From a virus, in IMG/VR virus record IMGVR_UViG_3300038465_000039, positions 25,261 to 89,260 of that record: DNA of 64,000 bases; one strand, given 5' to 3'. The position numbers and the translations under genes were made by a program. The stretch's first letter is position 1. Each line of letters opens with the position of its first letter. The notes under the pieces were generated by a model. That model did not search any database. It worked only from the letters and a program-made list of their open reading frames with translations, and was not told the DNA's origin. This document shows, piece by piece, positions 3,993 through 56,380 of this stretch.

Positions 3993-4016
3993 CTGATCTT
4001 CCTCTGGTCTTTGTTT

Positions 4017-4325
4017 TCAGAATTCGGTTTCGTCGTATATTTGGTTTTCGAGCTGCAATCGAGACGGCGGCTCATAAGGCTTGTTGCGCTTCATGACCGT
4101 GGCCTCGTCGGTCAGCGAATAGGAGAAGATCGACGGGCCGCCGTAGAGGTGCGTTGTCCAGCCCTTTGCAGGATCGCCAGAGATCGGCACGTCAACGCGG
4201 ATCATCTTCGCGCCGAACTTCTCGACCTCGATACATCGACCCCAATGCGAGCGATGCCCCATAATTTCGATAAAAGCCCACTCCCATTCCGGTGCTTCGA
4301 TCGGTTGGATTGTTTCGTCGTTCAT
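4017..4325 (-). CDS. Conserved hypothetical phage protein
   Basis: RBS GGAGGA; EWAFIEIMGHR...MIRVDVP pattern. Confidence 0.65.
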   Translation of the reverse strand: MNDETIQPIEAPEWEWAFIEIMGHRSHWGRCIEVEKFGAKMIRVDVPISGDPAKGWTTHLYGGPSIFSYSLTDEATVMKRNKPYEPPSRLQLENQIYDETEF

Positions 4326-4366
4326 GTCTTCCTCCATGGGTAGAATAAAATAGGCGTGGTCGAGGT

Positions 4367-5239
4367 TCATTCCGCGTCGGTGCAATGGGTGCCGCACTCG
4401 ACATCGTAGTCAGAGTCTTCATCGGCGCCGTCGAACAGCGTCGGCGAGACGCGAACTTGCTCGATCAGTTCGGAGACGGTATCGCGCTTATCGAACCAGC
4501 CGCTTTGCTCGCGCTCTCGATCAGCCCACCACGTCGCCACTGTTGCGTCATCGCGTATAAGGCGCTTGCGGATGCCTTTGCCTTTTTGGAAACAAAAGTC
4601 GCAGTTGCCTTCCCATGGATACAGGCCAAGGTCGAAGCCCTGCGGGAGCGGCACCGTGAGTGCTTTGGGATCGATATTGTCGCCCAGCCAGAATTTGAGG
4701 ACGTTGGCTTTCCGAACCTTGGCCTTCGCCAGCATATAACGGACGGTTCTGCCGTCCTTCTCAGCGCGCTCCATTCCGTTGAGGATGCGCAGCCCCTCAT
4801 CATCGCGGAGCCCGATGATCTCAGTATATTGCCCAGGCTCTAAGCCAAGCGTCGAGCGCATGAATGCGAACATGGGCATCACCTTGAGATATTGCGTGCA
4901 CCATCGCTCGTGAGTGTTCGGAAGGCGCTGCTTCGATTTGATCAACGCCTCGAACGGCTCGCCCTTACGACTGGCGCTATTATACCCGACCTCGGCAAAG
5001 CCCTCCTTGCCAGCGCGCCACTCAACCCAATGGACGCGGACGTTCCAGCGTGTCGAACATTCATGAACGAAGCGGAGCGTTTCTTCCTTCTCCTTGCCAG
5101 TGTTCGCAAAGACGGCATAAACGTCTCTCGGCAGGCCTCCATTAACGCGCAAAATCTCGTGCAGCATATAGGCCGACGTGCGACCGCCGCTAAATGAGAT
5201 CATCGCCGGGCCGTCAAGGATGATGTAGCTCAACGTCAC
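4367..5239 (-). CDS. PAPS reductase/PP-loop family protein
   Basis: ISFSGGRTSAYML PP-loop, FANTGKE, RWCTQYLK, GNCDFCF; GTGA overlap start. Confidence 0.8.
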   Translation of the reverse strand: MTLSYIILDGPAMISFSGGRTSAYMLHEILRVNGGLPRDVYAVFANTGKEKEETLRFVHECSTRWNVRVHWVEWRAGKEGFAEVGYNSASRKGEPFEALIKSKQRLPNTHERWCTQYLKVMPMFAFMRSTLGLEPGQYTEIIGLRDDEGLRILNGMERAEKDGRTVRYMLAKAKVRKANVLKFWLGDNIDPKALTVPLPQGFDLGLYPWEGNCDFCFQKGKGIRKRLIRDDATVATWWADREREQSGWFDKRDTVSELIEQVRVSPTLFDGADEDSDYDVECGTHCTDAE

Positions 5240-40163: not shown

Positions 40164-41465
40164 GTGGCCGGGAAGTCTGCTGGCGCGGTCCCCAACATCG
40201 AGGAATATCTCCTCGAATACGAGCGACCGTATCTCTACCCGAAACAACTCGACGCGATCTTCGACGCGCGGCGCTATAGTTGGATCGAGGCATCGACTAA
40301 GGCCGGGAAGACATCTGCGTGTATCGTCTGGATATTTGAGCAGGCGCTGCACGGCCAAGAGGGATGGAACTACTGGTGGATTGCACCGGTGTCCGGTCAG
40401 GCCGATATCGCGTTTCGCCGCGCGCTACGTGCAATACCGCAGGAATTGAGGAACGAAAATCAGACTCTTAAGACGATCACGCTGATCAACGGCGCGGTGA
40501 TCTGGTTCAAGTCGGCCGACAAGCCGGACTCGCTTTACGGCGAAGATGTCTATGCCGCTGTGATGGATGAGGCGAGTCGCACCAAGGAAGATGCTTGGTA
40601 CGCTGTGAGATCGACTCTGACAGCAACGCGCGGACCGATACGCTTGATTGGGAATGTGCGCGGGCGCAGGAATTGGTTTTATCAAAATGCTCGGAAGGCC
40701 GAGCGCGGCGAAGATCCAAACCACGGTTACCACAAGATCACCGCAGTCGACGCGATAGCTGCGTATGTCCTTGAGCAGGAAGAGGTCGACGACGCGCGCA
40801 AAGTTCTGCCCGAGGCGGTCTTCAAAGAGCTCTACCTCGCTGAGCCATCCGACGATCAAGGCAATCCGTTTGGCCTGAAGGCGATCGCAAGGTGCGTTCA
40901 GCCGATGAGTGCCGGCGCCATCCCGGTGGTGCATGGTCTCGATTTTGCGAAATCGCAGGACTGGACCGTCGACTGCGGTCTCGATGAGCACGGCCGTCTT
41001 GCGAAATTTCTTCGCATGCAGATCGGATGGGAAGCGCAGATACCGATCTTGCGGGCATCGATCGGCACGACGCCGACGCTCGGCGACTCGACCGGTGTCG
41101 GCGACCCGATTATCGAACGCCTGCAGAAGGCTCCAGGCTCCAAGGTCGAGGGCTACATCTTCAGCCCGGGATCGAAGCAGCGGCTGATGGAAGGTCTCGC
41201 GCTCGCTATTCAGTCCGGCGACGTCTCATTTCCGGATGCGCCCGACGGCGTACTGCCGCACGATCATCCCGGCCACATACTTCGCGAACTGGAAATGTTC
41301 GAATACGAGTTTACCCGGACCGGCGTCCGCTATTCTGCGCCGGCCGGATACCATGATGACTGCGTCATGGCGCTTGCGCTGGCGGTCATGCACCGAACCC
41401 ATGCGAGGCTACCGATGAAGATCAGCAAATCGGTTCTTGCCAGAGCGCAGGGCGGTCGCCGGTGA
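40164..41465 (+). CDS. Terminase large subunit
   Basis: Walker A STKAGKT, VMDEA, GLDFAKSQD, DSTGVGDP, HDDCVMALAL. Confidence 0.93.
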   Translation: MAGKSAGAVPNIEEYLLEYERPYLYPKQLDAIFDARRYSWIEASTKAGKTSACIVWIFEQALHGQEGWNYWWIAPVSGQADIAFRRALRAIPQELRNENQTLKTITLINGAVIWFKSADKPDSLYGEDVYAAVMDEASRTKEDAWYAVRSTLTATRGPIRLIGNVRGRRNWFYQNARKAERGEDPNHGYHKITAVDAIAAYVLEQEEVDDARKVLPEAVFKELYLAEPSDDQGNPFGLKAIARCVQPMSAGAIPVVHGLDFAKSQDWTVDCGLDEHGRLAKFLRMQIGWEAQIPILRASIGTTPTLGDSTGVGDPIIERLQKAPGSKVEGYIFSPGSKQRLMEGLALAIQSGDVSFPDAPDGVLPHDHPGHILRELEMFEYEFTRTGVRYSAPAGYHDDCVMALALAVMHRTHARLPMKISKSVLARAQGGRR

Positions 41466-43978
41466 CAGTCACCCGCTACAAGCGCGACCGGTCCTCGGAT
41501 GCCATTAGGGACGCCGTGATGGGCGTCATTCGCCACAAGCGCGAAGCACAGCCGGCTGAGACCGCGAAGCCGGCGCCCCCCGCAGGCGATCTGAAGGCCC
41601 GTTCGGTGGAGGACCTGGAGAAGCACCACGCCGAAGTCGTCGCTCCGATGAAGATTAGCCCGACCACGTTGGCGCTCGCCAGGTCGAAGCGACGAGCGGG
41701 TGCCATCCAGGAGCAGGCTATCCGCAGCTCGTTCAAGGCTTATGAACCGCCACCGAATGTCCTGCCGAGTGGTGCTAAACCGGACATGGCGCTCGATAGC
41801 GGGCTCCAAGGCTGGGCTGAAACATCGGCAACGAATGCGTGGAACTTTGCTGGCGCGTTCAACAATTCCTTTGCGGAGGGAATAGGCTTTCTCGGCTACG
41901 CGTATCTTTCACAACTCACTGAACGTCCGGAGTACCGTCGAATCTCGGAACGCATCGCGATCGAGATGACGCGGAAATGGATCAGGCTCACGGTCTCAGG
42001 CGAGGCCGATCCGGAATCGGAGGGTGGCGACGACGACGCGAAAGCCAATGATGGCTTCGGTTACGATCGCCAGCCCGATGCTGATCTCGATGATGAGGAG
42101 CAAGACGACGCGGATGGTGCCGGCGGTGCCGTGGCTGATTTTGACGACGATCAAGATGATGAACCTACACCGGAAGAAAAGGCCCAGCGGAAACGCAACG
42201 AGGCCCTTCAGAAAAAGCTGAAGGAAATCGATGCGGACATGAAGCGCCTCGATGTCCGCGGCAAGTTCAAGAGCATCGCTGAGTTCGACGGCTGGATGGG
42301 CCGTTCACACCTCTACATCGATACGGGTGATGGCGACGATCCCGATGAACTGAAGAGCAACCTCGGCAACGGCAGCGATGATATCAGCAAGGGGAAGTTC
42401 AAGAAGGGTTCACTTCGGAACATAAAGAACATCGAAGCGATCTGGTGTTATCCGGTCAACTACAACGCCAACGATCCTCTTGCTGATGATTGGTACAATC
42501 CGCAGGTCTGGTTCGCGATGGCGAAGCAGATACATGTTTCCCGACTACTGACATTCGTTGGCCGGCCATTACCGGATATTCTCAAACCGTCATATGCGTT
42601 CGGCGGCTTGTCGATGTCGCAGATGGCGAAGCCTTATGTCGATAATTGGCTGAGGACACGCCAGGCCGTTACGAACCTGATTGAATCGTTCTCGACGAGT
42701 GGCGTCTACACCAATGCGCAATCCTTGCTGCAGGGTGGTGGTGAAGAGGTTCTCGACCGTATCGAGATGTTCAATGCCAATCGATCCAATCTCGGATCGA
42801 TGGTGCTCGATAAAGAGACCGAGGAGTTCTTCAATATTTCGACGCCGCTCGGGACGCTCGACCAACTGCAGGCGCAGAGTCTTGAGCAGTTGGCTGTGGT
42901 TTCCGGCATCCCGCTTATCGTGTTGCTCGGAATCTCGCCCCATGGGCTCAACGCCACATCGGAAGGGGAGCTCAGAACATTTTTTGACCTCATCCACGCG
43001 ATGCAGGAAAACCTGTTCCGGGACAAGCTGAAACGAGTCATCGACTTCATTCAGTTGCACCTCTACGGCGAAGTCGACCCAGCGATCGGCTTCGAGTTTG
43101 AACCGCTATGGTCACTCGACGAAAAGGGCGAAGCCGAGGTCCGCAAGATCAAAGCGGAAACGCACATGATCTATGTCGACGGTGGCATATTCGGTCAGGA
43201 GGAAGTCCGCAATATCGAGATCGACGACGACGACAGTCCATACAACGGTCTCGATCCCGACGACATGCCAGATCTTCAGGCCGAGGAAGATGCCGGCCTC
43301 GTGCCTGGCGGCGGTTCATCCGAGGGCGGTGAGGGTGGCAGCAGTCGCGCCGACAACAAGGAAGTCGATGGTGCGGCAGATGAACTGCCTCTGATTGCTA
43401 TCGATGCGGCTTTCAACGAAGCCGACCATCCGCGCGCCGACAACGGCGAGTTCGGCGAGGGCGGCGGTGGTAAACCCAAGAAGGCCCGGCTTACGCCAAC
43501 TGAAAAGTCCTATCTCGATAGTTACAGCGGTGATGACTTTCTCAAACTGAACGAGAAGCTGCGATCCGGGGAAGACACTGGCGCTGCGACGGCAAAGATC
43601 GATTCGGCGATCTCTAAATCGACCATTGAACCGGGCACGAAGCTATATCGAGGTATCAGCAAGGACGCGCTCAAGAAGCTTGTGGCCGGCGATAGCATCG
43701 AAGCCGGTCAGGTTTTGTCTGATGCCGGTTTCTTATCTACATCGTCCAGTCGCGATATCGCCGGCATGAATAGCATCGGTGGCGCACTCATAGAAATTGA
43801 AGTTGGTCAAGGCCAAAATGGTCTCGATATGTCAGAAATCAGCAGGAACAAGCACGAGAAAGAGGTTATCCTCCCGCGTAATTCGAAGATGAAGGTTCTC
43901 GGTCTCCGTGCTCCGAAAAAGCCCGGCGATCCAATTATCGTTCGAGTGGCGACCCATAATGAGGAGGAAGACTCATGA
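41462..43978 (+). CDS. DUF1073-type portal protein fused to a C-terminal ADP-ribosyltransferase domain
   Basis: EYRRISE...EMTRKW, IHVSRL, SGIP..LLG.SP.GLNATSEG; ART LNEKLR, LYRG, FLSTS, HEKEVILPR. Confidence 0.85.
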   Translation: MTVTRYKRDRSSDAIRDAVMGVIRHKREAQPAETAKPAPPAGDLKARSVEDLEKHHAEVVAPMKISPTTLALARSKRRAGAIQEQAIRSSFKAYEPPPNVLPSGAKPDMALDSGLQGWAETSATNAWNFAGAFNNSFAEGIGFLGYAYLSQLTERPEYRRISERIAIEMTRKWIRLTVSGEADPESEGGDDDAKANDGFGYDRQPDADLDDEEQDDADGAGGAVADFDDDQDDEPTPEEKAQRKRNEALQKKLKEIDADMKRLDVRGKFKSIAEFDGWMGRSHLYIDTGDGDDPDELKSNLGNGSDDISKGKFKKGSLRNIKNIEAIWCYPVNYNANDPLADDWYNPQVWFAMAKQIHVSRLLTFVGRPLPDILKPSYAFGGLSMSQMAKPYVDNWLRTRQAVTNLIESFSTSGVYTNAQSLLQGGGEEVLDRIEMFNANRSNLGSMVLDKETEEFFNISTPLGTLDQLQAQSLEQLAVVSGIPLIVLLGISPHGLNATSEGELRTFFDLIHAMQENLFRDKLKRVIDFIQLHLYGEVDPAIGFEFEPLWSLDEKGEAEVRKIKAETHMIYVDGGIFGQEEVRNIEIDDDDSPYNGLDPDDMPDLQAEEDAGLVPGGGSSEGGEGGSSRADNKEVDGAADELPLIAIDAAFNEADHPRADNGEFGEGGGGKPKKARLTPTEKSYLDSYSGDDFLKLNEKLRSGEDTGAATAKIDSAISKSTIEPGTKLYRGISKDALKKLVAGDSIEAGQVLSDAGFLSTSSSRDIAGMNSIGGALIEIEVGQGQNGLDMSEISRNKHEKEVILPRNSKMKVLGLRAPKKPGDPIIVRVATHNEEEDS

Positions 43979-44154
43979 TCGGAAGTTGTGACTGCTGTAA
44001 TCGAATTGACGTACCTGTGTCGCACGTCAGTGCTTGCTATGCTCATCCTGAAGCAACGGCATGCTTTCTTTGTCAGGGCGACAGTGAACCCGACCCTTAT
44101 GGCGAACTGGTCGTCGACGACGGCAACGAAGTCGAGATGGAAGACGACGACTGA
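43975..44154 (+). CDS. 59-aa Cys-rich protein
   Basis: Hand translation MIGSCDCC...ACFLCQG...DDD*; ATGA overlap with the portal stop. Confidence 0.5.
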   Translation: MIGSCDCCNRIDVPVSHVSACYAHPEATACFLCQGDSEPDPYGELVVDDGNEVEMEDDD

Positions 44155-44298
44155 TGAACCGAAGCGATCCAGTTGAAAAACGCAGGCTTGCATTGATGCG
44201 CCAGGCTTCCGGTCGTGCCAACAGCCGGTTCAGCATCGGCGGTTTGGTCAAGCAACGCGGCCACGCCCCGAAACCGATCACGCTGGCAACATGGTCCG

Positions 44299-44643
44299 AT
44301 GAACAGGACGAAGCTTCTGGCGGAACTGCTCGACCTGCATCTGTCGCGCACGATCAACCGACACGGGGCTGACCTCATGAGCTCAAAGTTGTCGATCGCC
44401 GCGGCCAAGATGCGGGAAAAGCGCAAAGCATGGGATGATCGAGCACAGTCGCTGATCGAGAATATGGACAAGCTCGATGTCCGTGCAAACGGCGCATTCG
44501 AGAAGCACGAGGATGCGCTTTCCAGCGCGGAGGCCGGCTTCCGCGAGATGGAAGACGCCATCCGGGATCTGGAAGGTGCAAACAACCCTCCGCAGGAGGG
44601 CTCCGGGCCAAGCTCGGACGAGTCGTTTCCAGAGGTCAAATAA
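44299..44643 (+). CDS. Coiled-coil hypothetical protein
   Basis: Helical ORF; start uncertain. Confidence 0.4.
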   Translation: MNRTKLLAELLDLHLSRTINRHGADLMSSKLSIAAAKMREKRKAWDDRAQSLIENMDKLDVRANGAFEKHEDALSSAEAGFREMEDAIRDLEGANNPPQEGSGPSSDESFPEVK

Positions 44644-44759
44644 ACCGCTGGCGTCCGCCTCAGATGCACTAGATCGGGCGGAAAGGCGCAATACCAGGAT
44701 TGCGCGACCGAATGTTAGACCGTATAGGTGACATCCCTTCAAGCATCGGGGAGGTCGCG

Positions 44760-45068
44760 ATGGGTCTGGCCGGGAAATTCATCTTCCACATGGGCGAGGA
44801 ATACTCCCGTCACGGCGAAATCATTGAGCAGATTTCGGATGAAATAATCCTTGTCCGCTTTGAGCATGGCTGCGCCAATTGTGAATGCAGCAACCGATCA
44901 AGCAGAATCGTACCGATCAGCATCAAGTCGCTGATGGTCGAGATCGGTGACTACGACGACGCCTGCGAGTTGTTCGAGACCCGTGCCGATCTGGACAAGT
45001 TTCTGACATGGCTGGAGACCCCTTCTGAAAAGGCTGAGCCGGCCAAGATCGTCAAGCTGGTAAATTGA
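44760..45068 (+). CDS. Hypothetical protein
   Basis: GGAGG RBS before MGLAGK. Confidence 0.55.
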   Translation: MGLAGKFIFHMGEEYSRHGEIIEQISDEIILVRFEHGCANCECSNRSSRIVPISIKSLMVEIGDYDDACELFETRADLDKFLTWLETPSEKAEPAKIVKLVN

Positions 45069-45072
45069 AGCC

Positions 45073-45693
45073 ATGAAGATTGTTACACTAGTCGAGGCTC
45101 GCAATACCCTGTCCAAACGGTATTTTACTGGAGTCCCCTGCAAGCGCGGGCACATAAGCGAGCGCAGAACGAGCACAAGGGCTTGTATCGCATGTTCCAG
45201 TTTCCATCGAGAGCAGAACGGTGATCAACACCGCTTTGCATCGCGAAGATGGGCTGCAAATAACAAGGAACGCGGAAAAGCTAACGGCATTAGGTGGCGG
45301 GCTGAGAACCGAGACTTAGTTAAACAAATAAGGCGAAATTGGTACGCTCTAAATTCCGCAAAGTGCGTGGCTGCCACCTTAGAATGGGCGAAGAAAAACC
45401 CGGAGAAGCGAAGCGCCACTGAGCGCCGACGCAAGGCGAGGAAGCGCGCCGCCGGGGGAAATCATACTGCCGACGATGTCGTTGAATTGTACAGGCTACA
45501 GCGTGGCAAGTGTGCTCATGCGTGGTGCAACGTATCCCTAAAACCTGGTTATCATGTTGACCACGTTCAGCCGCTAAAACGCGGCGGATCGAATGATCGG
45601 TCTAACATTCAGTTGCTTTGTCCTAGTTGCAATGTTCGGAAAAGCGCATCTGACCCGATTGAGTGGGCGCAGCGTCATGGACTCTTGTTGTAG
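45073..45693 (+). CDS. HNH homing endonuclease
   Basis: YFTGVPCKRGH; HVDHVQPLKRGGSNDRSNIQLLCPSCN. Confidence 0.9.
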   Translation: MKIVTLVEARNTLSKRYFTGVPCKRGHISERRTSTRACIACSSFHREQNGDQHRFASRRWAANNKERGKANGIRWRAENRDLVKQIRRNWYALNSAKCVAATLEWAKKNPEKRSATERRRKARKRAAGGNHTADDVVELYRLQRGKCAHAWCNVSLKPGYHVDHVQPLKRGGSNDRSNIQLLCPSCNVRKSASDPIEWAQRHGLLL

Positions 45694-46497
45694 ATGGCTA
45701 CGATCAGACGGACGAAGAAAACTCAACTCAGGCCAGTCCGTCCCAACGTCGGGATCATGCTGGCCTATCAAAAAAAACTTGATCGCTTGATCACTGACAT
45801 GCAAAAGTCTGTCGCTTTCCATATTCGAGCGGCTTACCGACAACATCCTCCATCAATGGCGCTTGACGATGCATTGCCAACCAATGCTCTGAAGAGGGTT
45901 ATAGAAACTCTCAAAAAACGTTGGTTAAAACAGTTCTCTGACGCCGCACCGAAGCTGGCGCAGTATTTCGCGACCGCGGTCAACAAGCGTACCGATGCTT
46001 CGCTGAAAAAGATATTGCGGGACGGCGGATTCTCAGTCCGCTTCCAGCAAACGCAGGCCATGAAAGATGTCGTCAAGGCCACGCTTGAGCAGAATGTGTC
46101 GCTCATCAAAAGCATACCTGAACAATTCTTGAAGAACGTCGAAGGCGATGTTTTCAGATCGATCCAGCGTGGTCGCGATCTCGGCGGTCTGACGAAGGCG
46201 CTCGAAAAGAACTATGGTGTCACACATCGGCGTGCGGCCTTCATCGCGCGTTCGCAGAACAATCTCGCAAGTGGTGCGATGACCGCGGTCAGATTTACCG
46301 AGCTCGGAATCGATACTGCCAAATGGCGCCATTCAGGCGGGGGCAAAACTAAAAGGCCCAGTCACGTTGCGAACAACGGAAAGACCTACAAAGTTTCTAC
46401 CGGCTGGTACGACCCCACTGTCAAGAAATTCATAGTTCCTGGAGAGCTCCCGAACTGCAGATGCGTGGCGATTCCAGTCGTCCCCGGATTCTCGTGA
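45694..46497 (+). CDS. MuF/SPP1 gp7-like head morphogenesis protein
   Basis: NVSLIKSIP, RAAFIAR.Q, RPSH...G, PGELPNCRC. Confidence 0.9.
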   Translation: MATIRRTKKTQLRPVRPNVGIMLAYQKKLDRLITDMQKSVAFHIRAAYRQHPPSMALDDALPTNALKRVIETLKKRWLKQFSDAAPKLAQYFATAVNKRTDASLKKILRDGGFSVRFQQTQAMKDVVKATLEQNVSLIKSIPEQFLKNVEGDVFRSIQRGRDLGGLTKALEKNYGVTHRRAAFIARSQNNLASGAMTAVRFTELGIDTAKWRHSGGGKTKRPSHVANNGKTYKVSTGWYDPTVKKFIVPGELPNCRCVAIPVVPGFS

Positions 46498-49726: not shown

Positions 49727-51652
49727 GTGCCAGTAAAATCTGCGGCGCAAAATCGGGCAATGTGGGCCGCAAGAGAAGGACGCTCGACTTTGGGAATCCC
49801 CAAGTCTGTTGCGAAGAAGTTTGTCGGTCCATCTGCCCATGACGCAGCCGGTGCCAAGATCGCTGCCGGGATCATCTTCGTTTCGCCTGATGGTGATGTT
49901 CTGCTGCTGAAGCGTGCCGGCGAGGAAGGCGTCGACAACTACGTCGGACATTGGGCGCTGCCTGGTGGTGGTGCTGAGGATGGTGAGACGCCGGAGCAAT
50001 GCGCGGACCGAGAAGCGGCCGAGGAGCTCGGCGGAGCGGCGCCGGTCGGACGCAAGCGTCTGGTCGACCGCAAGACGACACCGAACGGGATGGTGTTCCA
50101 TACCTTCGCTCAGCAGTCCGACAAGTTTACACCGAAACTGAACGAGGAGCACTCGGCCTTCGGATGGTTCCCGCTCAATGCTTTACCGGGGCCAGAAAAC
50201 GATCATGCACCGGAACCGATGCATCCCGCCGTCAAGGCGGTTCTATCGGATGGCCTCGGGATGGCTCAGGACATGTCGCCCGAGGACTGGACCGCACTGC
50301 GGGAGAACTTCGCAAAGTGGACCCGCGAGGAAGAAGCGGAACCGGAGCATGCCGGGGACGTGAATGCGGTGGTCACGACCGTCCGCAACGATGAAGGCGT
50401 GATCCTGCTCGATACTTCGGATGGCAAGACGGTGGAACTTGGCCGGGGACTCGCCGACGACAACCAGCCGCAGCTCGCCACCACGGGGAACACAGGCATC
50501 CCACTGGCGGCTTGGAACAAGAAGCGGAAGGCAAAGATCGCTCAGGATGCCATTTTCCGGGCCTGCGGAGGCCAAGGATGCGTTAAATGTGGTGGGTCCG
50601 GGGTATCGCCCCTGACCAAGGCACCAATGAAGCCCGGGCTCGGTGGGGCTTTTGATGCCTTGTCACCCGCCATCGCCGCTTGGAACCGGATGGCAGACGC
50701 CGAAGCCGCGCGCGCCCGCAAACCGAATGCCTGCCCGATCTGCGGCGGTACCGGTGAGCTCGCCGGGCCCGGCATCATCTGCGATGAATGCGGAGGCTCA
50801 GGCCTGATCGCGCAAGACAGCCGCAAGGCACCGGAACACACGCTGCTGGTGCGCTACGACGGCGATTTCAGCTTCAAGGGGCTGCTCGCACATCTGAAAC
50901 GGCTTGGTTCGATCGGGGCCTCGCGCACGATCGAGGCGCGCGACGAAGACGACAAGATCGTGCCGTTCGGTTGGGATGGCGACGGCGCCGACAAGATTTG
51001 GGATGCCGAGATAGACGGCGAGAAACTCGCGTTTGATCGCGCGGCGGTGTCTGGCGTTGAGCGCCATGGTCTAGCATTTGACCGCGCGCCGGATAGCGCG
51101 CGCAAGTTCGATGCTGACGGACGAATGCATGTCGAAGTTTCCAATATTTCGCGCGCAGCAGTTAACCCGTATTTAGGTCGAGAAATACCTTCATACAAAT
51201 CGCTCGGTCTTGATCCGGATAAAATCTATCATTTGCTTCGCGATCCCGAGGAACTTCAAAAAGCCGTTCCGACATTCAACAATCTGCCGCTGCTTGACGA
51301 GCATGTGCCGGTTTCAGCAGCAAGCCATCGACCCGAGCATGTCATCGGATCACTCGGCACGGATGCTGAATTCGACGGCGAATTCTTGAAGAATAGCCTC
51401 GTCGTCTGGACGGAACGCGGCATCAAAGCAATTGAGAGCGAGAAGAAGCGCCAAATTTCATGCGCCTATCGCTATACGCCGGTGCTCGAAACCGGCGTAT
51501 TCAAGGGGCATCCCTACTCCATAAAAATGACGGCCATAATCGGAAATCATGCCTGCATAGTGCCCGAGGGGAGGGCTGGCGACATGGTGATGGTTGCGGA
51601 TGGAGCTCTTGATCCTTGGGCTTTGGTAGAATCTGCTATTTTAGGTCTATAG
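49727..51652 (+). CDS. Polyprotein: Nudix hydrolase, small modules and DUF2213 putative prohead protease
   Basis: Nudix box GGAEDGETPEQCADREAAEELG; ISRAAVNPYLGREIP, LLRDPEEL, ISCAYRY, NHACIVPEGRAG. Confidence 0.85.
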   Translation: MPVKSAAQNRAMWAAREGRSTLGIPKSVAKKFVGPSAHDAAGAKIAAGIIFVSPDGDVLLLKRAGEEGVDNYVGHWALPGGGAEDGETPEQCADREAAEELGGAAPVGRKRLVDRKTTPNGMVFHTFAQQSDKFTPKLNEEHSAFGWFPLNALPGPENDHAPEPMHPAVKAVLSDGLGMAQDMSPEDWTALRENFAKWTREEEAEPEHAGDVNAVVTTVRNDEGVILLDTSDGKTVELGRGLADDNQPQLATTGNTGIPLAAWNKKRKAKIAQDAIFRACGGQGCVKCGGSGVSPLTKAPMKPGLGGAFDALSPAIAAWNRMADAEAARARKPNACPICGGTGELAGPGIICDECGGSGLIAQDSRKAPEHTLLVRYDGDFSFKGLLAHLKRLGSIGASRTIEARDEDDKIVPFGWDGDGADKIWDAEIDGEKLAFDRAAVSGVERHGLAFDRAPDSARKFDADGRMHVEVSNISRAAVNPYLGREIPSYKSLGLDPDKIYHLLRDPEELQKAVPTFNNLPLLDEHVPVSAASHRPEHVIGSLGTDAEFDGEFLKNSLVVWTERGIKAIESEKKRQISCAYRYTPVLETGVFKGHPYSIKMTAIIGNHACIVPEGRAGDMVMVADGALDPWALVESAILGL

Positions 51653-51733
51653 AAAGGTGATATAAAAACGGGACCGAACAGCGTTGGACGCGCTGATCGA
51701 TCCCTGACCAAGTGCGCTGGATGAGAACGCAAG

Positions 51734-52453
51734 ATGGCTAAAGAACAAATCCCATACTCTGGGCCTATTGTCACCAAGGCTGAAGCAAAGGCCGCCGGTG
51801 CCAAGAAGTATTTTACAGGCAAGCCCTGCATCCGGGGACATATCTCCGAGAGGTGGGTGAGCACGCGAACTTGTGTTGGGTGTGCGACGTCTGAGCCGAG
51901 GCTTAAGGCTGATCTAAAATACAGGTCGAGTCATAGAGAAGAAATTCGTGAGAAGACCGCAAGGTGGCGGGCAGAGAATCCTGAGCGAACGAGACAATCT
52001 TTAGCCGATTACTTTGCGGCGAATGAAGAGCAGATCAATCAGCGCAGACGCGATGATTATGCGGCAAATGCTCCGGCCAAGCGACTAGAGAAGAGAGAGC
52101 GGTACGCCGCCGATCCACTGCATTACCAGGAAATCAATCGGCGGTACGCCGAGGAAAATCCCGAAGTAATTAGAGCCATCAGGCGTAACCGTCGCGCTCG
52201 CAAGAGAGGCGCTGGCGGTAGCCATACAGCCGCAGATATCGAGTGGTTACTCAACAAACAGAAAAATAAATGCGCGCACTCATGGTGTCGCATCTCTTTG
52301 GCTGATGGTCACCACGTAGATCATATGGTGCCGTTAGCGTTAGGTGGTTCCAATGACCGCAGAAACATTCAACTGCTCTGCGAGCCATGCAATCTGAAAA
52401 AGCACGCAAAGCACCCGATAGACTTTGCGCAGGAGCATGGCTTGCTCCTATAG
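51734..52453 (+). CDS. HNH homing endonuclease (paralog of 45073)
   Basis: YFTGKPCIRGH; HVDHMVPLALGGSNDRRNIQLLCEPCN. Confidence 0.9.
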   Translation: MAKEQIPYSGPIVTKAEAKAAGAKKYFTGKPCIRGHISERWVSTRTCVGCATSEPRLKADLKYRSSHREEIREKTARWRAENPERTRQSLADYFAANEEQINQRRRDDYAANAPAKRLEKRERYAADPLHYQEINRRYAEENPEVIRAIRRNRRARKRGAGGSHTAADIEWLLNKQKNKCAHSWCRISLADGHHVDHMVPLALGGSNDRRNIQLLCEPCNLKKHAKHPIDFAQEHGLLL

Positions 52454-52463
52454 GGGCGAATCC

Positions 52464-53543
52464 ATGAGCAAGCTTCGTGATGCACTCCGCAAGAAATTCA
52501 AGACTCCTCGTGAGGCCATTCTGGCGCTCGGTCTCGACGAGTCACTCCTGACTGAGCGCGCCTATGATTCCGTGAACCCTCAACTGAAGGAGAAGACAAT
52601 GCAGAAGATCAAACTGTCCGGTCTCGGCACCGTAGCCTACGGCGCTCTGATGACCTTCCTGCGGCCGCAACTGGCGATGGATCAGACCATCGATCTCAAG
52701 CGTGGTCTGCGCAACATCAACGCCAGGAACTTCAAGGCCAAGCGTCCCGTACTGGCGGCGTGGATCAGCGAGTCCGTCAAGGACAAGCTCGATCCGCAGT
52801 TCGCGCATGATGGTGCGCTAAATACCGACGGTCTCGATGCTGTCCTCGACATGGTCGAACTCGCCCTCGACGATTTTCCCGAAGAGATGAAGGAAAAGAT
52901 GGACGAGAAAAAGGACAAGGCCAAGGACATGAAGCCCATGGCCGGCGCCAAGGACGAGGAATCCGACGAGGATTCCGACATGGATGCCGAAGACGAAGAC
53001 GAGACCGAAGAGGAGAAGGAGGCCCGCATGAAAAAGCGCGCCGCCGACAAAAAGGCCAAAGACAAGAAAATGGGCAAGGACAAGAAGGCCAAGGACAAGG
53101 CCGATGTCAACGAGGATCCCGAAGAGCACGATCCCGAGACACCCGAAGAGACCGCCAACGACGAGGACGACGACATGGAAGCGGCGATGGATGCAAAGAT
53201 CAACGCCGGTATCCAGGCCGGCATCAAGAAGGAGCGCGACCGCATGGAGGCCATCTCGGTCGCCAAGGATCATGTCCGTTCCCGCGTCGGCAATCTTTCC
53301 ATGGCGTTCGATTCTGCGGCTCAGGTCTACGCCAAGGCCATCGAAGTCGCCGCCGGCAAGAAACCGCCGAAGGATGCGAATGTCGAAATGCTGAAGTTCG
53401 CATTCGACAACCTTCCCTCGAAGGATGGTGGCCGCAACAAGCAGACCTACGCGATGGATTCGGCGCCGAGCACCGCGGCGAGTGATCTCGCCAAGCGCAA
53501 TCCTGCTCTTGCGAAGAACCTGGAGCGCATCGGGCGCCAGTAA
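52464..53543 (+). CDS. Putative scaffolding protein
   Basis: Highly charged, between protease and capsid genes; many A-x-D motifs. Confidence 0.7.
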   Translation: MSKLRDALRKKFKTPREAILALGLDESLLTERAYDSVNPQLKEKTMQKIKLSGLGTVAYGALMTFLRPQLAMDQTIDLKRGLRNINARNFKAKRPVLAAWISESVKDKLDPQFAHDGALNTDGLDAVLDMVELALDDFPEEMKEKMDEKKDKAKDMKPMAGAKDEESDEDSDMDAEDEDETEEEKEARMKKRAADKKAKDKKMGKDKKAKDKADVNEDPEEHDPETPEETANDEDDDMEAAMDAKINAGIQAGIKKERDRMEAISVAKDHVRSRVGNLSMAFDSAAQVYAKAIEVAAGKKPPKDANVEMLKFAFDNLPSKDGGRNKQTYAMDSAPSTAASDLAKRNPALAKNLERIGRQ

Positions 53544-55227: not shown

Positions 55228-55255
55228 AAGGCGTCTCGTCATGAGCGCCTTTTTT
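55228..55255 (+). terminator. Terminator-like hairpin before the capsid gene
   Basis: AAGGCG-T-CTCG-TCA-TGAGCGCCTTTTTT. Confidence 0.5.
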
Positions 55256-55276
55256 ATTTTGGAAAGGCACTTACAG

Positions 55277-56380
55277 ATGAATCGCCATGAAGCAGCTGCC
55301 GCGTATGCGGCCGAACGCCACATCTACGAGTCCAGCGGTGCGGTATTCGAAAACGTCAAGATGTTCATCCCCGACGGATGGAAACACGACTTCAACCTCG
55401 CGATGGATCAAGGCCTCGCGATGGACGCGCAGCCTCAGTTGTCGACGACACAGAACACCGGTATTCCGGTTTGGCTGTCGACGATGATCGATCCCACGGT
55501 CTATGAGATTCTGTTCTCCCCGCTGAAGGCCGCCGAAATTCTCGGCGAAGTGAAGAAGGGCGACTGGACCTTGAATTCCGTGATGTTCCCGACCGCGGAA
55601 CACACCGGCGAAGTCTCGAGCTATGACGACTACGTCAACAACGGTTCGGTTTCCACCAACCTGAACTTCCCGTCACGCCAGCCGTACCTCTATCAGACCA
55701 TCCTTCAATACGGTGACCGCGAGCTCGATGTCGTCGGCCTCGCCAAGATCAATTGGGTATCGGAACTGAATGCGGCCGCGGCCTGGGCACTGAACCGCTA
55801 TCAGAACCAGACCTACTTCTTCGGGGTGAAAGGTCTTCAGAATTACGGCATCCTGAACGATCCGAACCTGACCGCCGCACTGACGCCCGGACCGAAGGCG
55901 TACGGCAACAATCTGTGGATTACGAACGGCATCATCACCGCAACGCCGAACGAGATCTATCTCGATATCCAGGCACTCATCCTGCAGCTGATCCTGCAGT
56001 CCGGCGGCAACATCAATCAGGAATCGCCGTTCGTGCTGGCGCTTTCACCGGCATCGAAGTTCGCGCTGACCGCAACGAACTCGTTCGACGTCAATGTCAG
56101 CGACTTGCTGAAGCAGATTCCGAACCTGAAGATTATCGATGCGATCCAGTATCAGGCTCAGACGACGGCAAACCCGCAGGGTGTTGTCGGCGGCAACTTC
56201 ATGCAGATGATCTGCACCTCAGTTCGCGGGCAGCAGGCCGGCTTCTGTGCGTTCAACGAGAAGATGCGTTCCCATCGTCTGATCCCCGACCTGTCGTCGT
56301 GGAAACAGAAGCTGAGCGGCGGCACGATGGGTGCTATTTACCGGCAGCCCTGGTGCGTCAGCAGCATGTTGGGTATCTGA
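55277..56380 (+). CDS. Major capsid protein (DUF2184-like)
   Basis: AMDAQP..., GEVKKGDW, SYDDY, YFFGV.GL.NYG.LNDPNL. Confidence 0.88.
   Translation: MNRHEAAAAYAAERHIYESSGAVFENVKMFIPDGWKHDFNLAMDQGLAMDAQPQLSTTQNTGIPVWLSTMIDPTVYEILFSPLKAAEILGEVKKGDWTLNSVMFPTAEHTGEVSSYDDYVNNGSVSTNLNFPSRQPYLYQTILQYGDRELDVVGLAKINWVSELNAAAAWALNRYQNQTYFFGVKGLQNYGILNDPNLTAALTPGPKAYGNNLWITNGIITATPNEIYLDIQALILQLILQSGGNINQESPFVLALSPASKFALTATNSFDVNVSDLLKQIPNLKIIDAIQYQAQTTANPQGVVGGNFMQMICTSVRGQQAGFCAFNEKMRSHRLIPDLSSWKQKLSGGTMGAIYRQPWCVSSMLGI

What the first reader, a model, noticed from the sequence alone, without database searches (positions are those of the whole stretch)
43397..43978. ADP-ribosyltransferase fused to the portal behind an AID site and an HPR..NG.F linker
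Seen: after an acidic Gly-rich linker comes IAID-AAFNEADHPRADNGEFGEGGG, then ~190 aa with the R-S-E signature (LYRG, FLSTS, HEKE). Known: this is the VIP2/T4 Alt-like ART family, and in phages such toxin domains are usually described on MuF. Here MuF is short and the ART sits on the portal. Inference: a virion-delivered enzyme for host takeover or anti-defence. No immunity gene is recognisable, though small ORFs follow at 43975-45068.
Basis: partly seen in the sequence, partly recalled or inferred. Interest (0 to 1): 0.78.

Follow-up and report, generated by a model that had tools for sequence, protein, structure and literature searches.

The report
Phage portal carrying an ADP-ribosyltransferase cargo
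The DNA-entry ring (portal) protein of an uncultured peat phage is fused to an apparently active arginine-type ADP-ribosylating enzyme, probably cut free inside the capsid and delivered to the next host; the arrangement is real but belongs to a class already described.

Summary
One uninterrupted 838-aa frame (41462-43978, +) joins a DUF1073 portal (PF06381, 8.8e-72) to a PF03496 ADP-ribosyltransferase (4.9e-20). The predicted fold matches C3/VIP2/CDTa enzymes, and the R, S-T-S and E-x-E residues are invariant. A contig from another study spans the joint with no differences, so it is not an assembly artefact.

The "AID" site and the "HPR..NG.F linker" are one element. It is a roughly 20-residue junction tag, D-A-x-[FW]-x-E-x-x-HPR-x-x-x-G-x-FG-x-GG, found in at least 112 viral contigs between portals and many unrelated enzyme cargoes. 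The tag co-occurs with a DUF2213 head protease in 35 of 45 long records. That protease has the T4 gp21 fold.

Cargo is swapped just before the tag between 83%-identical portals. Cultured, predicted-virulent Pseudomonas phages (Orionvirus) carry the same fusion.

Portal-fused ARTs and "polyvalent proteins" are in print (PMC9503650, PMC5512222). This scan had already found the same fusion and tag on other DNA. Verdict: new member of a known kind. One small downstream gene family (44299-44643) tracks ART-bearing portals and is a testable inhibitor candidate.

The parts
41462..43978 (+). Portal-ART fusion gene, 838 codons. The GTG start overlaps the TerL stop.
   Evidence: The N-terminal 19 residues are conserved in P0024, which favours the GTG start over the 819-aa gene call P0002.
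41900..43162 (+). Portal domain, DUF1073/Phage_portal_3, aa 147-567.
   Evidence: PF06381 at 8.8e-72. phrog_146 'portal protein' at 7.5e-91.
41783..41797 (+). M-A-L-D-S (aa 108-112), a conserved A-[ML]-D site about 110 aa from the portal N-terminus. Possible N-terminal processing site.
   Evidence: The same 'AMD' column appears in the consensus of 20 relatives and in P0003, P0004, P0008, P0009, P0014 and P0025. That it is cut is inference only.
43247..43393 (+). Acidic, Gly-rich tail after the portal crown (aa 596-644). Close relatives without cargo end in the equivalent stretch.
   Evidence: L161, L165/166, L169, L174 and others stop 15-41 aa after the portal match. Identity to P0024 stays high up to ...DGAAD (aa 641) and is lost from there.
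43397..43471 (+). Junction tag A-I-D-A-A-F-N-E-A-D-H-P-R-A-D-N-G-E-F-G-E-G-G-G-G (aa 646-670). Proposed protease cut D648/A649 (43405/43406).
   Evidence: Pattern match at 43418-43461, with 0 of 100 shuffles matching. Logo from 112 instances. Low pLDDT (47-62) in the model, so it is not packed on the ART. The cut site is inferred from conserved A-x-D|A in capsid proteins and the gp21-fold protease.
43481..43900 (+). ADP-ribosyltransferase domain (PF03496, aa 674-813). The folded unit spans about aa 676-832.
   Evidence: AF2 pLDDT 80. Foldseek top hits C3bot1, Plx2a, Certhrax, CDTa and VIP2, probability 1.0, TM about 0.6-0.66. phmmer against PDB: ExoT 1.3e-9, ExoS 4.6e-7, Vip2 3e-6.
43649..43651 (+). 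Catalytic Arg, R730 (in LYRG).
   Evidence: Invariant in 18 of 18 and 20 of 20 aligned relatives. Aligned to the FRG/YR motif of ExoT and Vip2.
43736..43744 (+). S759-T760-S761 (STS motif).
   Evidence: S759 and S761 invariant, T760 at least 90%. Aligned to the STS of ExoT, ExoS and Vip2.
43856..43864 (+). E799-K-E801 (ExE, ARTT loop). This form points to arginine as acceptor.
   Evidence: Both Glu invariant. Aligned to EQE of ExoT and EKE of Vip2. The link between ExE and arginine specificity is established knowledge that I recalled, not a tool result.
43975..44154 (+). 59-aa Cys-rich ORF whose ATG overlaps the portal stop (ATGA). Not conserved.
   Evidence: No Pfam or PHROG match. No tblastn match in any of the 194 fetched loci.
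44299..44643 (+). 'o142' family gene. The conserved part starts at M29 of the 142-aa frame that begins at 44215. Candidate ART partner or inhibitor.
   Evidence: HMM hits at E<1e-10 in W, L002, L039, L046, L069, L106 and L163/164, always just downstream of a portal gene that holds an ART. Present in 7 of 18 ART-bearing against 0 of 41 other portal clusters. No Pfam, PHROG or Atlas lead.
45694..46497 (+). MuF head protein, 267 aa, without toxin domain.
   Evidence: PF04233 at 1.5e-12. phrog_324 at 2.9e-70.
49727..51652 (+). Nudix...DUF2213 head-protease polyprotein. The protease domain is aa 459-625.
   Evidence: PF00293 at 5e-19 and PF09979 at 3.9e-45. phrog_2229 'head maturation protease'. 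Invariant H, S, H. AF2 pLDDT 87. T4 gp21 Z 10.5, herpesvirus assemblins Z 7-9.
55241..56380 (+). Major capsid protein with L-A-M-D|A site(s) ahead of the conserved body.
   Evidence: phrog_264 at 5.6e-62, aligned from residue 53 on. [LMI]-A-[MC]-D-A conserved in 5 of 5 aligned relatives.

Best explanation
The gene encodes a portal protein whose C-terminus, which faces the capsid interior, carries a swappable enzyme cargo. In this phage the cargo is an arginine-type mono-ADP-ribosyltransferase of the Alt/VIP2/C3 (R-S-ExE) kind.

Shown:
- The fusion is real.
- The fold and catalytic residues are intact.
- The cargo begins with a widespread roughly 20-residue junction tag.
- The cargo is exchanged as a unit among related portals.
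- The phage encodes a gp21/assemblin-fold DUF2213 head protease.

Inferred:
- Twelve copies enter each prohead with the portal ring.
- The head protease cuts at the A-x-D|A that opens the tag (D648|A649), as it is proposed to do in the capsid protein.
- The freed ~21-kDa enzyme, still carrying the HPR tag, leaves with the DNA and ADP-ribosylates arginines of host proteins early in the next infection, either for takeover or to blunt defence, as T4 Alt does.
For: Identity and integrity of the enzyme:
- PF06381 and PF03496 lie in one frame.
- AF2 gives pLDDT 80. Foldseek gives probability 1.0 to C3, VIP2 and CDTa. phmmer matches ExoT, ExoS and Vip2 with R, STS and ExE aligned. R730, S759, S761, E799 and E801 are invariant in 18 of 18 relatives.

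The joint is real:
- An X2 contig from another study spans it with 0 differences. X4 and X5 contigs cross it with only substitutions.

Cargo behaviour:
- The ART cassette is fused to portals in 16 of 24 protein clusters, to DUF2213 in 5 of 24, and sits with Nudix in 3 of 24.
- In 28 viral loci it is placed at a portal-type C-terminus in 14, at the N-terminus of a longer protein in 8, and in a short frame in 6, of which one is cut by a contig end.
- P0024 is 83% identical over aa 1-670. Similarity ends at aa 641, and its own ART is only 22% identical.
- About half of the related metagenome portals have no cargo.

The tag:
- It occurs in at least 112 viral stretches, giving 112 distinct in-frame instances. 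Unconstrained positions are conserved: W/F in 109 of 112, N/D in 102 of 112, D at -5 or -4 in 72 of 112.
- The upstream side is a portal in 44 of 81 fragments.
- The downstream side holds Zeta-toxin kinase, LPD3, topoisomerase IB, ART, PBECR1, DUF2213, Nudix, InPase and RelA/SpoT domains.

The protease link:
- DUF2213 is present in 35 of 45 tag-bearing records of at least 30 kb, and in 19 of 23 that are at least 90% complete. By tblastn it is present in 807 of 50,697 cultured phage records.
- The fold matches T4 gp21 at Z 10.5, with an invariant H...S...H.
- A-[MC]-D|A is conserved ahead of the capsid body in 5 of 5 aligned relatives.

No immunity needed:
- MuF follows the ART within 5-60 bp in L001, L005-9, L021, L022, L025, L026, L051, L140 and L176.
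- The 92%-complete own record has no integrase, ARH or Macro match.
- The Orionvirus phages that carry the fusion are predicted virulent.

Precedent: T4 Alt is packaged (40 copies), trimmed by gp21 and ejected (PMC9026906, passages read).
Against: - No cleavage, packaging, ejection or enzyme activity has been measured for this protein or for any relative I found.
- The cut site is a motif argument. D at -5 or -4 is only slightly commoner in records with DUF2213 (28 of 38) than in those without a match (7 of 13).
- The tag also follows lambda-type portals (6 of 81). This weakens a strict link to one protease family. The tag-DUF2213 association could simply reflect shared ancestry of the whole head module.
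- Standalone ARTs keep the tag at their very N-terminus (L014), so the tag may do something other than mark a cut.
- A 21-kDa folded enzyme must unfold to pass the portal and tail channel.
- The target is unknown.
Confidence: 0.6

Rival explanations
1. The ART stays tethered to the portal and is never cut or ejected. It acts in the producer cell late in infection, or at the portal vertex. For example, it might modify host or phage proteins, or counter defence systems that sense portal or terminase.
For: PMC9503650 raises exactly this alternative for ARTs linked to packaging genes (passage read). No cleavage data exist. The linker is long and flexible (pLDDT 47-62), so a tethered enzyme could still reach substrates. 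The o142 family next to ART-bearing portals would make sense as a brake on an enzyme that is active in the producer cell.
Against: The same cassette occurs free-standing and on the protease polyprotein, which argues that being in the capsid matters more than being on the portal. The conserved A-x-D|A plus tag at every module border, including several per protein (P0004, P0022, L060, L125), looks like processing.
Confidence: 0.2
2. It is a polymorphic toxin for competition between bacteria, like the MuF toxins or Bxa. On this reading it is released at lysis or carried by particles, and it is neutralised in the producer by a cognate immunity protein encoded downstream.
For: C-terminal toxin swapping at a conserved joint is the hallmark of polymorphic toxins (PMC3482391 and PMC5576092, passages read). 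Bxa is a prophage-encoded ART neutralised by a binding immunity protein and a hydrolase (PMC11699363, abstract). The o142 family is restricted to ART-bearing portals: 7 of 18 against 0 of 41 clusters, Fisher p 9e-5, not corrected for relatedness.
Against: 11 of 18 ART-bearing portal clusters lack o142, and in many of them MuF starts 5-60 bp after the ART. The 92%-complete record has no tyrosine integrase, ARH or Macro match. Cultured carriers are predicted virulent. The 59-aa ORF directly coupled to the portal stop has no homologue in 194 loci.
Confidence: 0.1
3. The domain is a catalytically dead or re-purposed ART fold that serves a structural role at the portal crown.
For: No activity data exist. 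Some polyvalent-protein ART-like domains lose catalytic residues (an earlier scan note, e1-3418848, unchecked here).
Against: R, S-T-S and E-x-E are invariant across relatives 40-75% identical. Across the X4/X5 strain variants 25 of 29 differences are third-position changes.
Confidence: 0.05
4. The fusion is an assembly or gene-calling artefact.
For: None found.
Against: Contigs from three other samples in two studies cross the joint without indels or stops. The same architecture occurs in 16 of 24 protein clusters, in 9 of 18 representative viral ORFs and in four cultured phage genomes.
Confidence: 0.01

Closest known systems
Portal- and MuF-fused effectors and 'polyvalent proteins' of phages (Iyer, Burroughs, Anand, de Souza, Aravind 2017, PMC5512222; Iyer et al. 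2022, PMC9503650; passages read)
   Same: An enzymatic effector is fused to a head protein in a terminase-portal module, with predicted packaging and injection. [quoted passage not shown] The cargo domains found behind the tag here (LPD3, LPD13, PBECR1/2, InPase, RelA/SpoT, Nudix, ParB_N) are the domain families of those papers.
   Different: I found no mention of the junction tag in the passages I read, and no paper spells it. Figures and supplements, where architectures and alignments are shown, could not be seen. Those papers propose zincin metallopeptidase domains as the processing enzymes. Here the associated protease is DUF2213 with the gp21 fold.
T4 Alt, an ADP-ribosyltransferase packaged in the head and ejected (PMC9026906, passages read)
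   Same: An R-S-E ART that is head-internal, processed by an assemblin/gp21-fold protease after an acidic residue, and delivered with the DNA. There are weak profile matches to phrog_802 'Alt-like' (9.4e-6 for the whole protein, 2e-7 for the domain alone).
   Different: Alt is a free ~75-kDa protein that enters through the scaffolding core at about 40 copies. Here the enzyme is a ~21-kDa domain riding on the 12-mer portal. Sequence similarity to Alt is marginal. By sequence ExoT, ExoS and Vip2 are nearer, and by fold C3 and VIP2 are nearest.
MuF polymorphic toxins (Jamet et al. 2017, PMC5576092) and Bxa with Bsi and BAH (PMC11699363)
   Same: A phage head-module protein with a variable C-terminal toxin. 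14% of MuF toxins are ARTs. A small downstream gene may be a partner.
   Different: The carrier is the portal. MuF is a separate 267-aa gene with no toxin. MuF toxins were found only in temperate phages, whereas no integrase was found here and the cultured carriers are predicted virulent. A downstream partner is absent in most relatives.
Pseudomonas phages Orisa01-03 and Orimi01 (Orionvirus; PP179326-PP179329; PMC11256456)
   Same: The same architecture: a 703-aa CDS at 2270-4381 with the ART 55% identical, and MuF starting at 4381.
   Different: The CDS is annotated 'hypothetical protein'. The paper's main text does not contain the words portal or ADP-ribosyl. There are no small ORFs or HNH gene between the portal-ART and MuF.

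Membership tests
R-S-E ADP-ribosyltransferases, Alt/VIP2/C3 group (Pfam PF03496) | Profile match above the curated cut-off | tested here: met
   72.1 bits against a cut-off of 23.4, E 4.9e-20, aa 674-813.
R-S-E ADP-ribosyltransferases, Alt/VIP2/C3 group (Pfam PF03496) | ART fold | tested here: met
   AF2 pLDDT 80. Foldseek top hits C3bot1, Plx2a, Certhrax, CDTa and VIP2 at E 6e-11 to 2e-9, probability 1.0, TM 0.55-0.66.
R-S-E ADP-ribosyltransferases, Alt/VIP2/C3 group (Pfam PF03496) | Catalytic Arg, Ser-Thr-Ser and Glu-x-Glu in order | tested here: met
   R730, S759-T-S761 and E799-K-E801 are aligned to ExoT, ExoS and Vip2 and are invariant in relatives.
R-S-E ADP-ribosyltransferases, Alt/VIP2/C3 group (Pfam PF03496) | NAD+-dependent ADP-ribosylation of a defined acceptor | not testable with these tools
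   Needs an enzyme assay.
DUF1073 / Phage_portal_3 portal proteins (PF06381) | Profile match, and position directly after the large terminase gene | tested here: met
   242.2 bits against a cut-off of 33.8. The start overlaps the stop of the TerL-like ORF 40164-41465. It is the only gene in the window's head module that I found with a portal match.
Phage polyvalent / portal-fused effector proteins (PMC5512222, PMC9503650) | Two or more domains of disparate activity in one polypeptide, encoded in a phage head (portal-terminase) module | tested here: met
   Portal plus ART lie in one frame between TerL and MuF. Relatives carry 2-4 modules behind the same tag.
Phage polyvalent / portal-fused effector proteins (PMC5512222, PMC9503650) | Presence in the virion and transfer to the host | not testable with these tools
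   Needs virion proteomics and infection assays.
MuF polymorphic toxins (PMC5576092) | N-terminal MuF domain carrying the toxin | tested here: not met
   The carrier is PF06381. MuF is a separate 267-aa gene with PF04233 only.
MuF polymorphic toxins (PMC5576092) | Cognate small immunity ORF directly downstream | tested here: inconclusive
   The coupled 59-aa ORF has no homologue in 194 loci. The o142 family is found only next to ART-bearing portals, but in just 7 of 18 clusters.
MuF polymorphic toxins (PMC5576092) | Temperate phage or prophage | tested here: inconclusive
   The 92%-complete record has no PF00589 match. Serine recombinases were not searched. Cultured carriers are predicted virulent.
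gp21/assemblin-fold prohead serine proteases (as the proposed processing enzyme, DUF2213) | Fold, and a His...Ser...His triad in order | tested here: met
   VIA-align: T4 gp21 Z 10.5 (rmsd 2.8 A over 129 residues); VZV and PRV proteases Z 9.2. Foldseek: EBV protease 7.9e-4. H87, S139 and H169 are invariant in 24 sequences. Which of the two His residues is catalytic was not checked by superposition.
gp21/assemblin-fold prohead serine proteases (as the proposed processing enzyme, DUF2213) | Cleavage of the portal linker at A-x-D|A | not testable with these tools
   Only motif conservation is available.

The most novel reading that the evidence does not exclude
The 20-residue tag D-A-x-[FW]-x-E-x-x-HPR-x-x-x-G-x-FG-x-GG may be an undescribed, portable 'cut here and keep in the head' signal. 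On this reading it co-evolved with the gp21-fold DUF2213 protease, and any enzyme placed behind it (on a portal, on the protease polyprotein, or free-standing) is trimmed and loaded as ejectable cargo. The small 44299-44643 gene family would then be a dedicated inhibitor that keeps the ART quiet in the producer cell.
Probability: 0.3. Interest if true: 0.6.

Novelty: new member of a known kind. Interest (0 to 1): 0.32.

Why it matters
Capsid-loaded enzymes are a phage's first move in a new cell. An arginine-type ART delivered with the DNA could reprogramme transcription or disable a defence before any phage gene is expressed.

This case adds a clean, minimal example: portal, one tag, one enzyme. 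It has cultured relatives (Orionvirus phages of Pseudomonas syringae) in which cutting, packaging and targets could be measured.

The junction tag and its link to a gp21-fold protease would, if confirmed, give a simple rule for recognising packaged cargo in metagenomes. They would also give a handle for loading foreign proteins into phage heads in laboratory systems.

As a discovery it is modest. The class is in print, and this scan has met the same fusion and tag on several other genomes.

Tried and rejected
- A close-relative scan of viral contigs with the single ART sequence found nothing. The alignment-based scan worked.
- phmmer of the 46-aa tag region against PDB sequences gave only a chance ribosomal hit at E 1.3, so no solved structure holds the tag.
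- No paper spells the tag: searches for 'HPRxxxG', 'HPRxxxGxF', 'ESKHPR', 'KHPRxxxG', 'DHPRxxxG' and 'HPRX3G' gave one irrelevant hit. The polyvalent-protein paper has 0 occurrences of 'HPR', 'linker' or 'glycine'. Figures are not held and supplements are closed, so the tag may still appear in the alignments of PMC5512222 or PMC9503650.
- I searched for published N-terminal sequencing or cleavage data for DUF2213-type phages (Bcep781, Pbunavirus). Searches gave nothing usable.
- I tested whether the residue before the tag tracks the protease family. D at -5 or -4 occurs in 28 of 38 instances in records with DUF2213 and in 7 of 13 in records without. The sample is too small and the split too weak to count either way.
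- The ESM Atlas search for the 44299-44643 product returned only generic long-helix look-alikes, from a low-confidence model (pTM 0.27).
- The genome-contig scan with P0024 did not recover P0024's own contig. It returned one Burkholderia MAG prophage with a 505-aa cargo-less portal.
- The window holds no second HPR tag. The Nudix-protease polyprotein of this phage therefore lacks the tag, although relatives have it at the equivalent place.
- Rejected: a programmed stop or frameshift at the joint (the frame is open and independent contigs agree), and the 59-aa coupled ORF as a conserved immunity gene.
- Not done: a serine-recombinase search, RNA evidence, any complex prediction, and the search of protein representatives.


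Full report
**What is there.** The window holds a phage head module on the + strand. In order it contains:
- a TerL-like ORF (40164-41465);
- an 838-codon ORF (41462-43978);
- three small ORFs (43975-44154, 44215-44643, 44700-45068);
- an HNH endonuclease (45073-45693);
- a 267-aa MuF protein (45694-46497);
- further on, a Nudix...DUF2213 polyprotein (49727-51652);
- a major capsid protein (55241-56380).

The 838-aa product matches Phage_portal_3 (PF06381, aa 147-567, 8.8e-72) and ADPrib_exo_Tox (PF03496, aa 674-813, 4.9e-20). The window is part of an 89,260-bp virus record that CheckV rates 92% complete.

**Is the fusion real?** Yes. Ten public runs hold the stretch or part of it, all of them peat or permafrost metagenomes. 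I laid contigs of four runs on 42900-44300.
- A 1657-base contig of X2 (another sample and study) covers 43211-44300 with no difference.
- Contigs of X4 and X5 cross 43078-43510 and 43042-43517 with 27 and 28 substitutions, no indels and no stop.
- All of these substitutions lie between 43081 and 43309. By my count from that table, 25 of the 29 listed differences are third codon positions.
- From 43310 on, the variant strains are identical to the window across the tag. X4 differs at only 2 places over 43549-44224.

The reading frame is therefore under purifying selection. A recombination border appears to lie about 90 bases upstream of the tag.

**Is it an ART?** An AlphaFold2 model of aa 640-838, built with 19 relatives, has mean pLDDT 80. 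The tag region scores 47-62 and the enzyme 80-92.
- Foldseek against the PDB puts C3bot1, Plx2a, C3bot2, Certhrax, CDTa and VIP2 on top (E 6e-11 to 2e-9, probability 1.0, TM 0.55-0.66).
- By sequence the nearest solved chains are ExoT (1.3e-9), ExoS (4.6e-7) and Vip2 (3e-6). In these alignments Y-R-G, S-T-S and E-K-E line up with the catalytic R, STS and ExE.
- R730, S759, S761, E799 and E801 are invariant in 18 of 18 representative relatives. The corresponding columns are invariant or at least 90% conserved in a second set of 20.

The ExE form is the one that, from established knowledge (recalled), goes with arginine acceptors. Activity and target are untested.

**How common is the architecture?** A database search with aa 600-838 (candidates of 460-1467 aa only) gave 24 clusters. 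Sixteen carry PF06381, five carry DUF2213 (PF09979), three carry Nudix, and one has the ART only.

In IMG/VR, 28 of 37 pattern-matched stretches encode the cassette. It is placed as follows:
- after 416 or more residues of a portal-type N-terminal part in 14 loci;
- at the N-terminus of a longer protein in 8 loci;
- in a short frame of 192-284 aa in 6 loci, of which L017 is cut by the contig end.

Of 18 representative ORFs, all have PF03496, 9 have PF06381, 5 have Nudix and 3 have DUF2213.

Four cultured phages of Pseudomonas syringae (Orisa01-03, Orimi01) encode the same fusion, with the ART 55% identical. In Orisa03 it is a 703-aa 'hypothetical protein' (CDS 2270-4381) followed at 4381 by the MuF-like head protein. 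The paper describing them classes the genus Orionvirus as myoviruses and predicts them virulent. Its main text does not contain 'portal' or 'ADP-ribosyl' (PMC11256456, passages read).

**The 'AID site' and the 'HPR linker' are one widespread tag.** In the relatives, the stretch [FW]-x-E-x-x-H-P-R-x-x-x-G-x-F-G-x-G-G precedes the ART whatever the carrier. It also recurs before other modules of the same protein (P0004, P0022, P0025).

In the window it hits once, and none of 100 shuffles matched.

The hits gave 112 distinct in-frame instances, plus one match in a 36-aa frame (L072) that looks like chance. Positions the pattern left free are strongly conserved:
- W or F two residues before the Glu in 109 of 112;
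- N or D before the Gly in 102 of 112;
- Asp at -5 (52) or -4 (20);
- Ala at -4 (51).

In the window, D648-A649 occupy these last two positions.

Pfam on up to 421 residues upstream (81 fragments) finds PF06381 in 37, the lambda-type portal PF05136 in 6, PF04860 in 1, Nudix in 6 and MuF in 1.

Pfam on up to 381 residues downstream (111 fragments) finds Zeta-toxin kinase in 10, LPD3 in 8, topoisomerase IB in 5, ART in 4, PBECR1 in 4, DUF2213 in 3 and Nudix in 2. InPase, LPD13, PBECR2 and RelA/SpoT occur once each. Most fragments match nothing.

These are the domain families of the 'polyvalent proteins' of Iyer et al. 2017.

**Cargo is exchanged as a unit.** P0024 is 83% identical to the window's protein over aa 1-670, but similarity ends at ...DGAAD (aa 641). 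After its own A-F-D and tag it carries about 430 other residues ending in an ART that is only 22% identical. L046, with an 85%-identical portal part, has the same alternative cargo.

I examined 32 portal loci: 31 of the 35 metagenome loci fetched with the portal part, plus the Burkholderia MAG locus L159. About half stop 15-41 residues after the portal match. These include the 73%-identical L161 and the MAG prophage. Twelve of the 32 show the tag within the portal frame. The tails include ART, histidine phosphatase, topoisomerase IB and GNAT domains.

**The protease and the cut site.** The window's DUF2213 domain belongs to PHROG families named 'head maturation protease'.
- In 24 aligned sequences a His, a Ser and a second His are invariant.
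- The AF2 model has pLDDT 87.
- VIA-align places T4 gp21 first (Z 10.5, rmsd 2.8 A, 129 residues), followed by herpesvirus assemblins (Z 7-9). Foldseek lists the EBV protease first (7.9e-4).

Of 45 tag-bearing viral records of at least 30 kb, 35 hold a DUF2213 match, and 19 of the 23 that are at least 90% complete do so. By tblastn with the window's domain, 807 of 50,697 cultured phage records have one. That comparison is less sensitive, so this is only a rough contrast.

T4 gp21 cuts after Glu in a short logo and trims Alt at both ends (PMC9026906). Three observations here point to A-x-D|A as the analogous site:
- [LMI]-A-[MC]-D-A is conserved about 55-60 residues into the capsid protein in 5 of 5 aligned relatives.
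- A-[ML]-D is conserved about 110 residues into the portals.
- [LAI]-[AI]-[FIL]-D immediately precedes the DUF2213 domain in the window's polyprotein and in P0013, P0016 and P0020.

I therefore propose D648|A649 as the cut. This is inference.

Against a strict protease-tag pairing, the tag also follows lambda-type portals. In addition, D at -5 or -4 is only a little more frequent with DUF2213 (28 of 38) than without a match (7 of 13).

**Immunity.** The 59-aa ORF coupled to the portal stop has no homologue in any of 194 loci. The 122-aa ORF has one weak match, placed after MuF in L001.

In L001, L005-9, L021, L022, L025, L026, L051, L140 and L176, MuF begins 5-60 bp after the ART, leaving no room for a partner. 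The own record has no match to tyrosine integrase, ADP-ribosylglycohydrolase or Macro families. An obligatory immunity gene is therefore unlikely.

One lead remains. The 44215/44299-44643 product defines a small family. HMM hits at E<1e-10 occur in the window, L002, L039, L046, L069, L106 and L163/164, always just downstream of a portal gene containing an ART, even where that ART is 22-32% identical to ours.

- Among 74 loci with both portal and MuF, 8 of 23 ART-bearing and 0 of 51 other loci have it.
- After clustering portals at 90% identity the counts are 7 of 18 against 0 of 41 (Fisher p 9e-5).
- Among portals at least 40% identical to ours they are 7 of 16 against 0 of 19 (p 0.0017).

These tests ignore relatedness and the way the loci were sampled. 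By analogy with Bsi, the binding inhibitor of the prophage ART Bxa (PMC11699363, abstract), the family is a testable inhibitor candidate. Nothing more can be said yet.

[quoted passage not shown] It also states that Alt/VIP2 ARTs are fused to MuF, and that Nudix domains are fused to MuF, portal and the capsid-processing serine peptidase. The authors infer packaging and injection. PMC5512222 describes 2H and PBECR fusions to MuF or portal.

The window's gene is a member of that class. It fails the definition of a MuF toxin because the carrier is not MuF. I found no description of the tag, but figures and supplements could not be seen.

Earlier notes of this scan report the same portal-ART fusion and the same tag on other genomes, with the same reading. 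They were leads, and everything cited above was recomputed here.

**Verdict.** The enzyme assignment is supported, and capsid loading is very likely because the carrier is the portal. Release by the head protease and delivery to the host are plausible but unshown. Novelty: new member of a known kind. The tag-protease link and the ART-associated small gene are the parts worth an experiment.

Noticed in passing
window 49727-53543: The head protease-scaffold gene looks split by a free-standing HNH endonuclease gene. ORF 49727-51652 matches phrog_2229 positions 5-184. HNH lies at 51734-52453. ORF 52425-53543 matches phrog_2229 positions 204-419.
   Followed up: no
window 45073-45693: A second HNH endonuclease sits between the portal-ART and MuF. 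Homologues occur in L159 (43% identical, after MuF), L186 (right after the portal) and L047. Together with the small ORFs it forms a ~1.7-kb insertion that is absent from most relatives.
   Followed up: partly
window 43081-43310: Strain variants in runs X4 and X5 differ at 27-28 positions, all between 43081 and 43309. Downstream they are identical through the tag, and X4 is nearly identical through the ART. This is a likely recombination border just upstream of the cargo cassette.
   Followed up: partly
L024, L027, P0020, P0022: A second, different N-terminal adapter replaces the HPR tag before the same ART: W-[IV]-T-[IVM]-x-x-G-x-H-[IV]-x-I...G-x-I.
   Followed up: no
L035, L058, L061, L074, L090, L093, L096, L124, L126, L134: Small free-standing tag-bearing proteins begin with a short His-rich strand-like leader (h-L-H-I-Y-h-H-T-x-D) directly before the tag. 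This could be a leader removed at the same D|A.
   Followed up: no
P0009; L184:2811-6002: Some related portals are interrupted by an intein or Hint domain (PF13403 in P0009, Intein_splicing in L184).
   Followed up: no
window 55241-56380: The proposed capsid maturation site is duplicated in this phage (L-A-M-D-Q-G-L-A-M-D-A), whereas relatives have one copy.
   Followed up: no
window 49727-51652 versus P0013: In P0013 the tag plus ART is inserted in the protease polyprotein. At the corresponding place the window's protein has only ...K-L-A-F-D-R-A-A-V-S-G-V-E-R-H-G-L-A-F-D-R.... So the same cassette moves between the portal C-terminus and the protease N-terminal region.
   Followed up: partly
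phrog_30637, phrog_15528: PHROG profiles exist that join a portal C-part to DUF2213 (phrog_30637, 1119 positions) and a portal to Nudix (phrog_15528). Portal-protease and portal-Nudix fusions are therefore already represented among known phage proteins.
   Followed up: no
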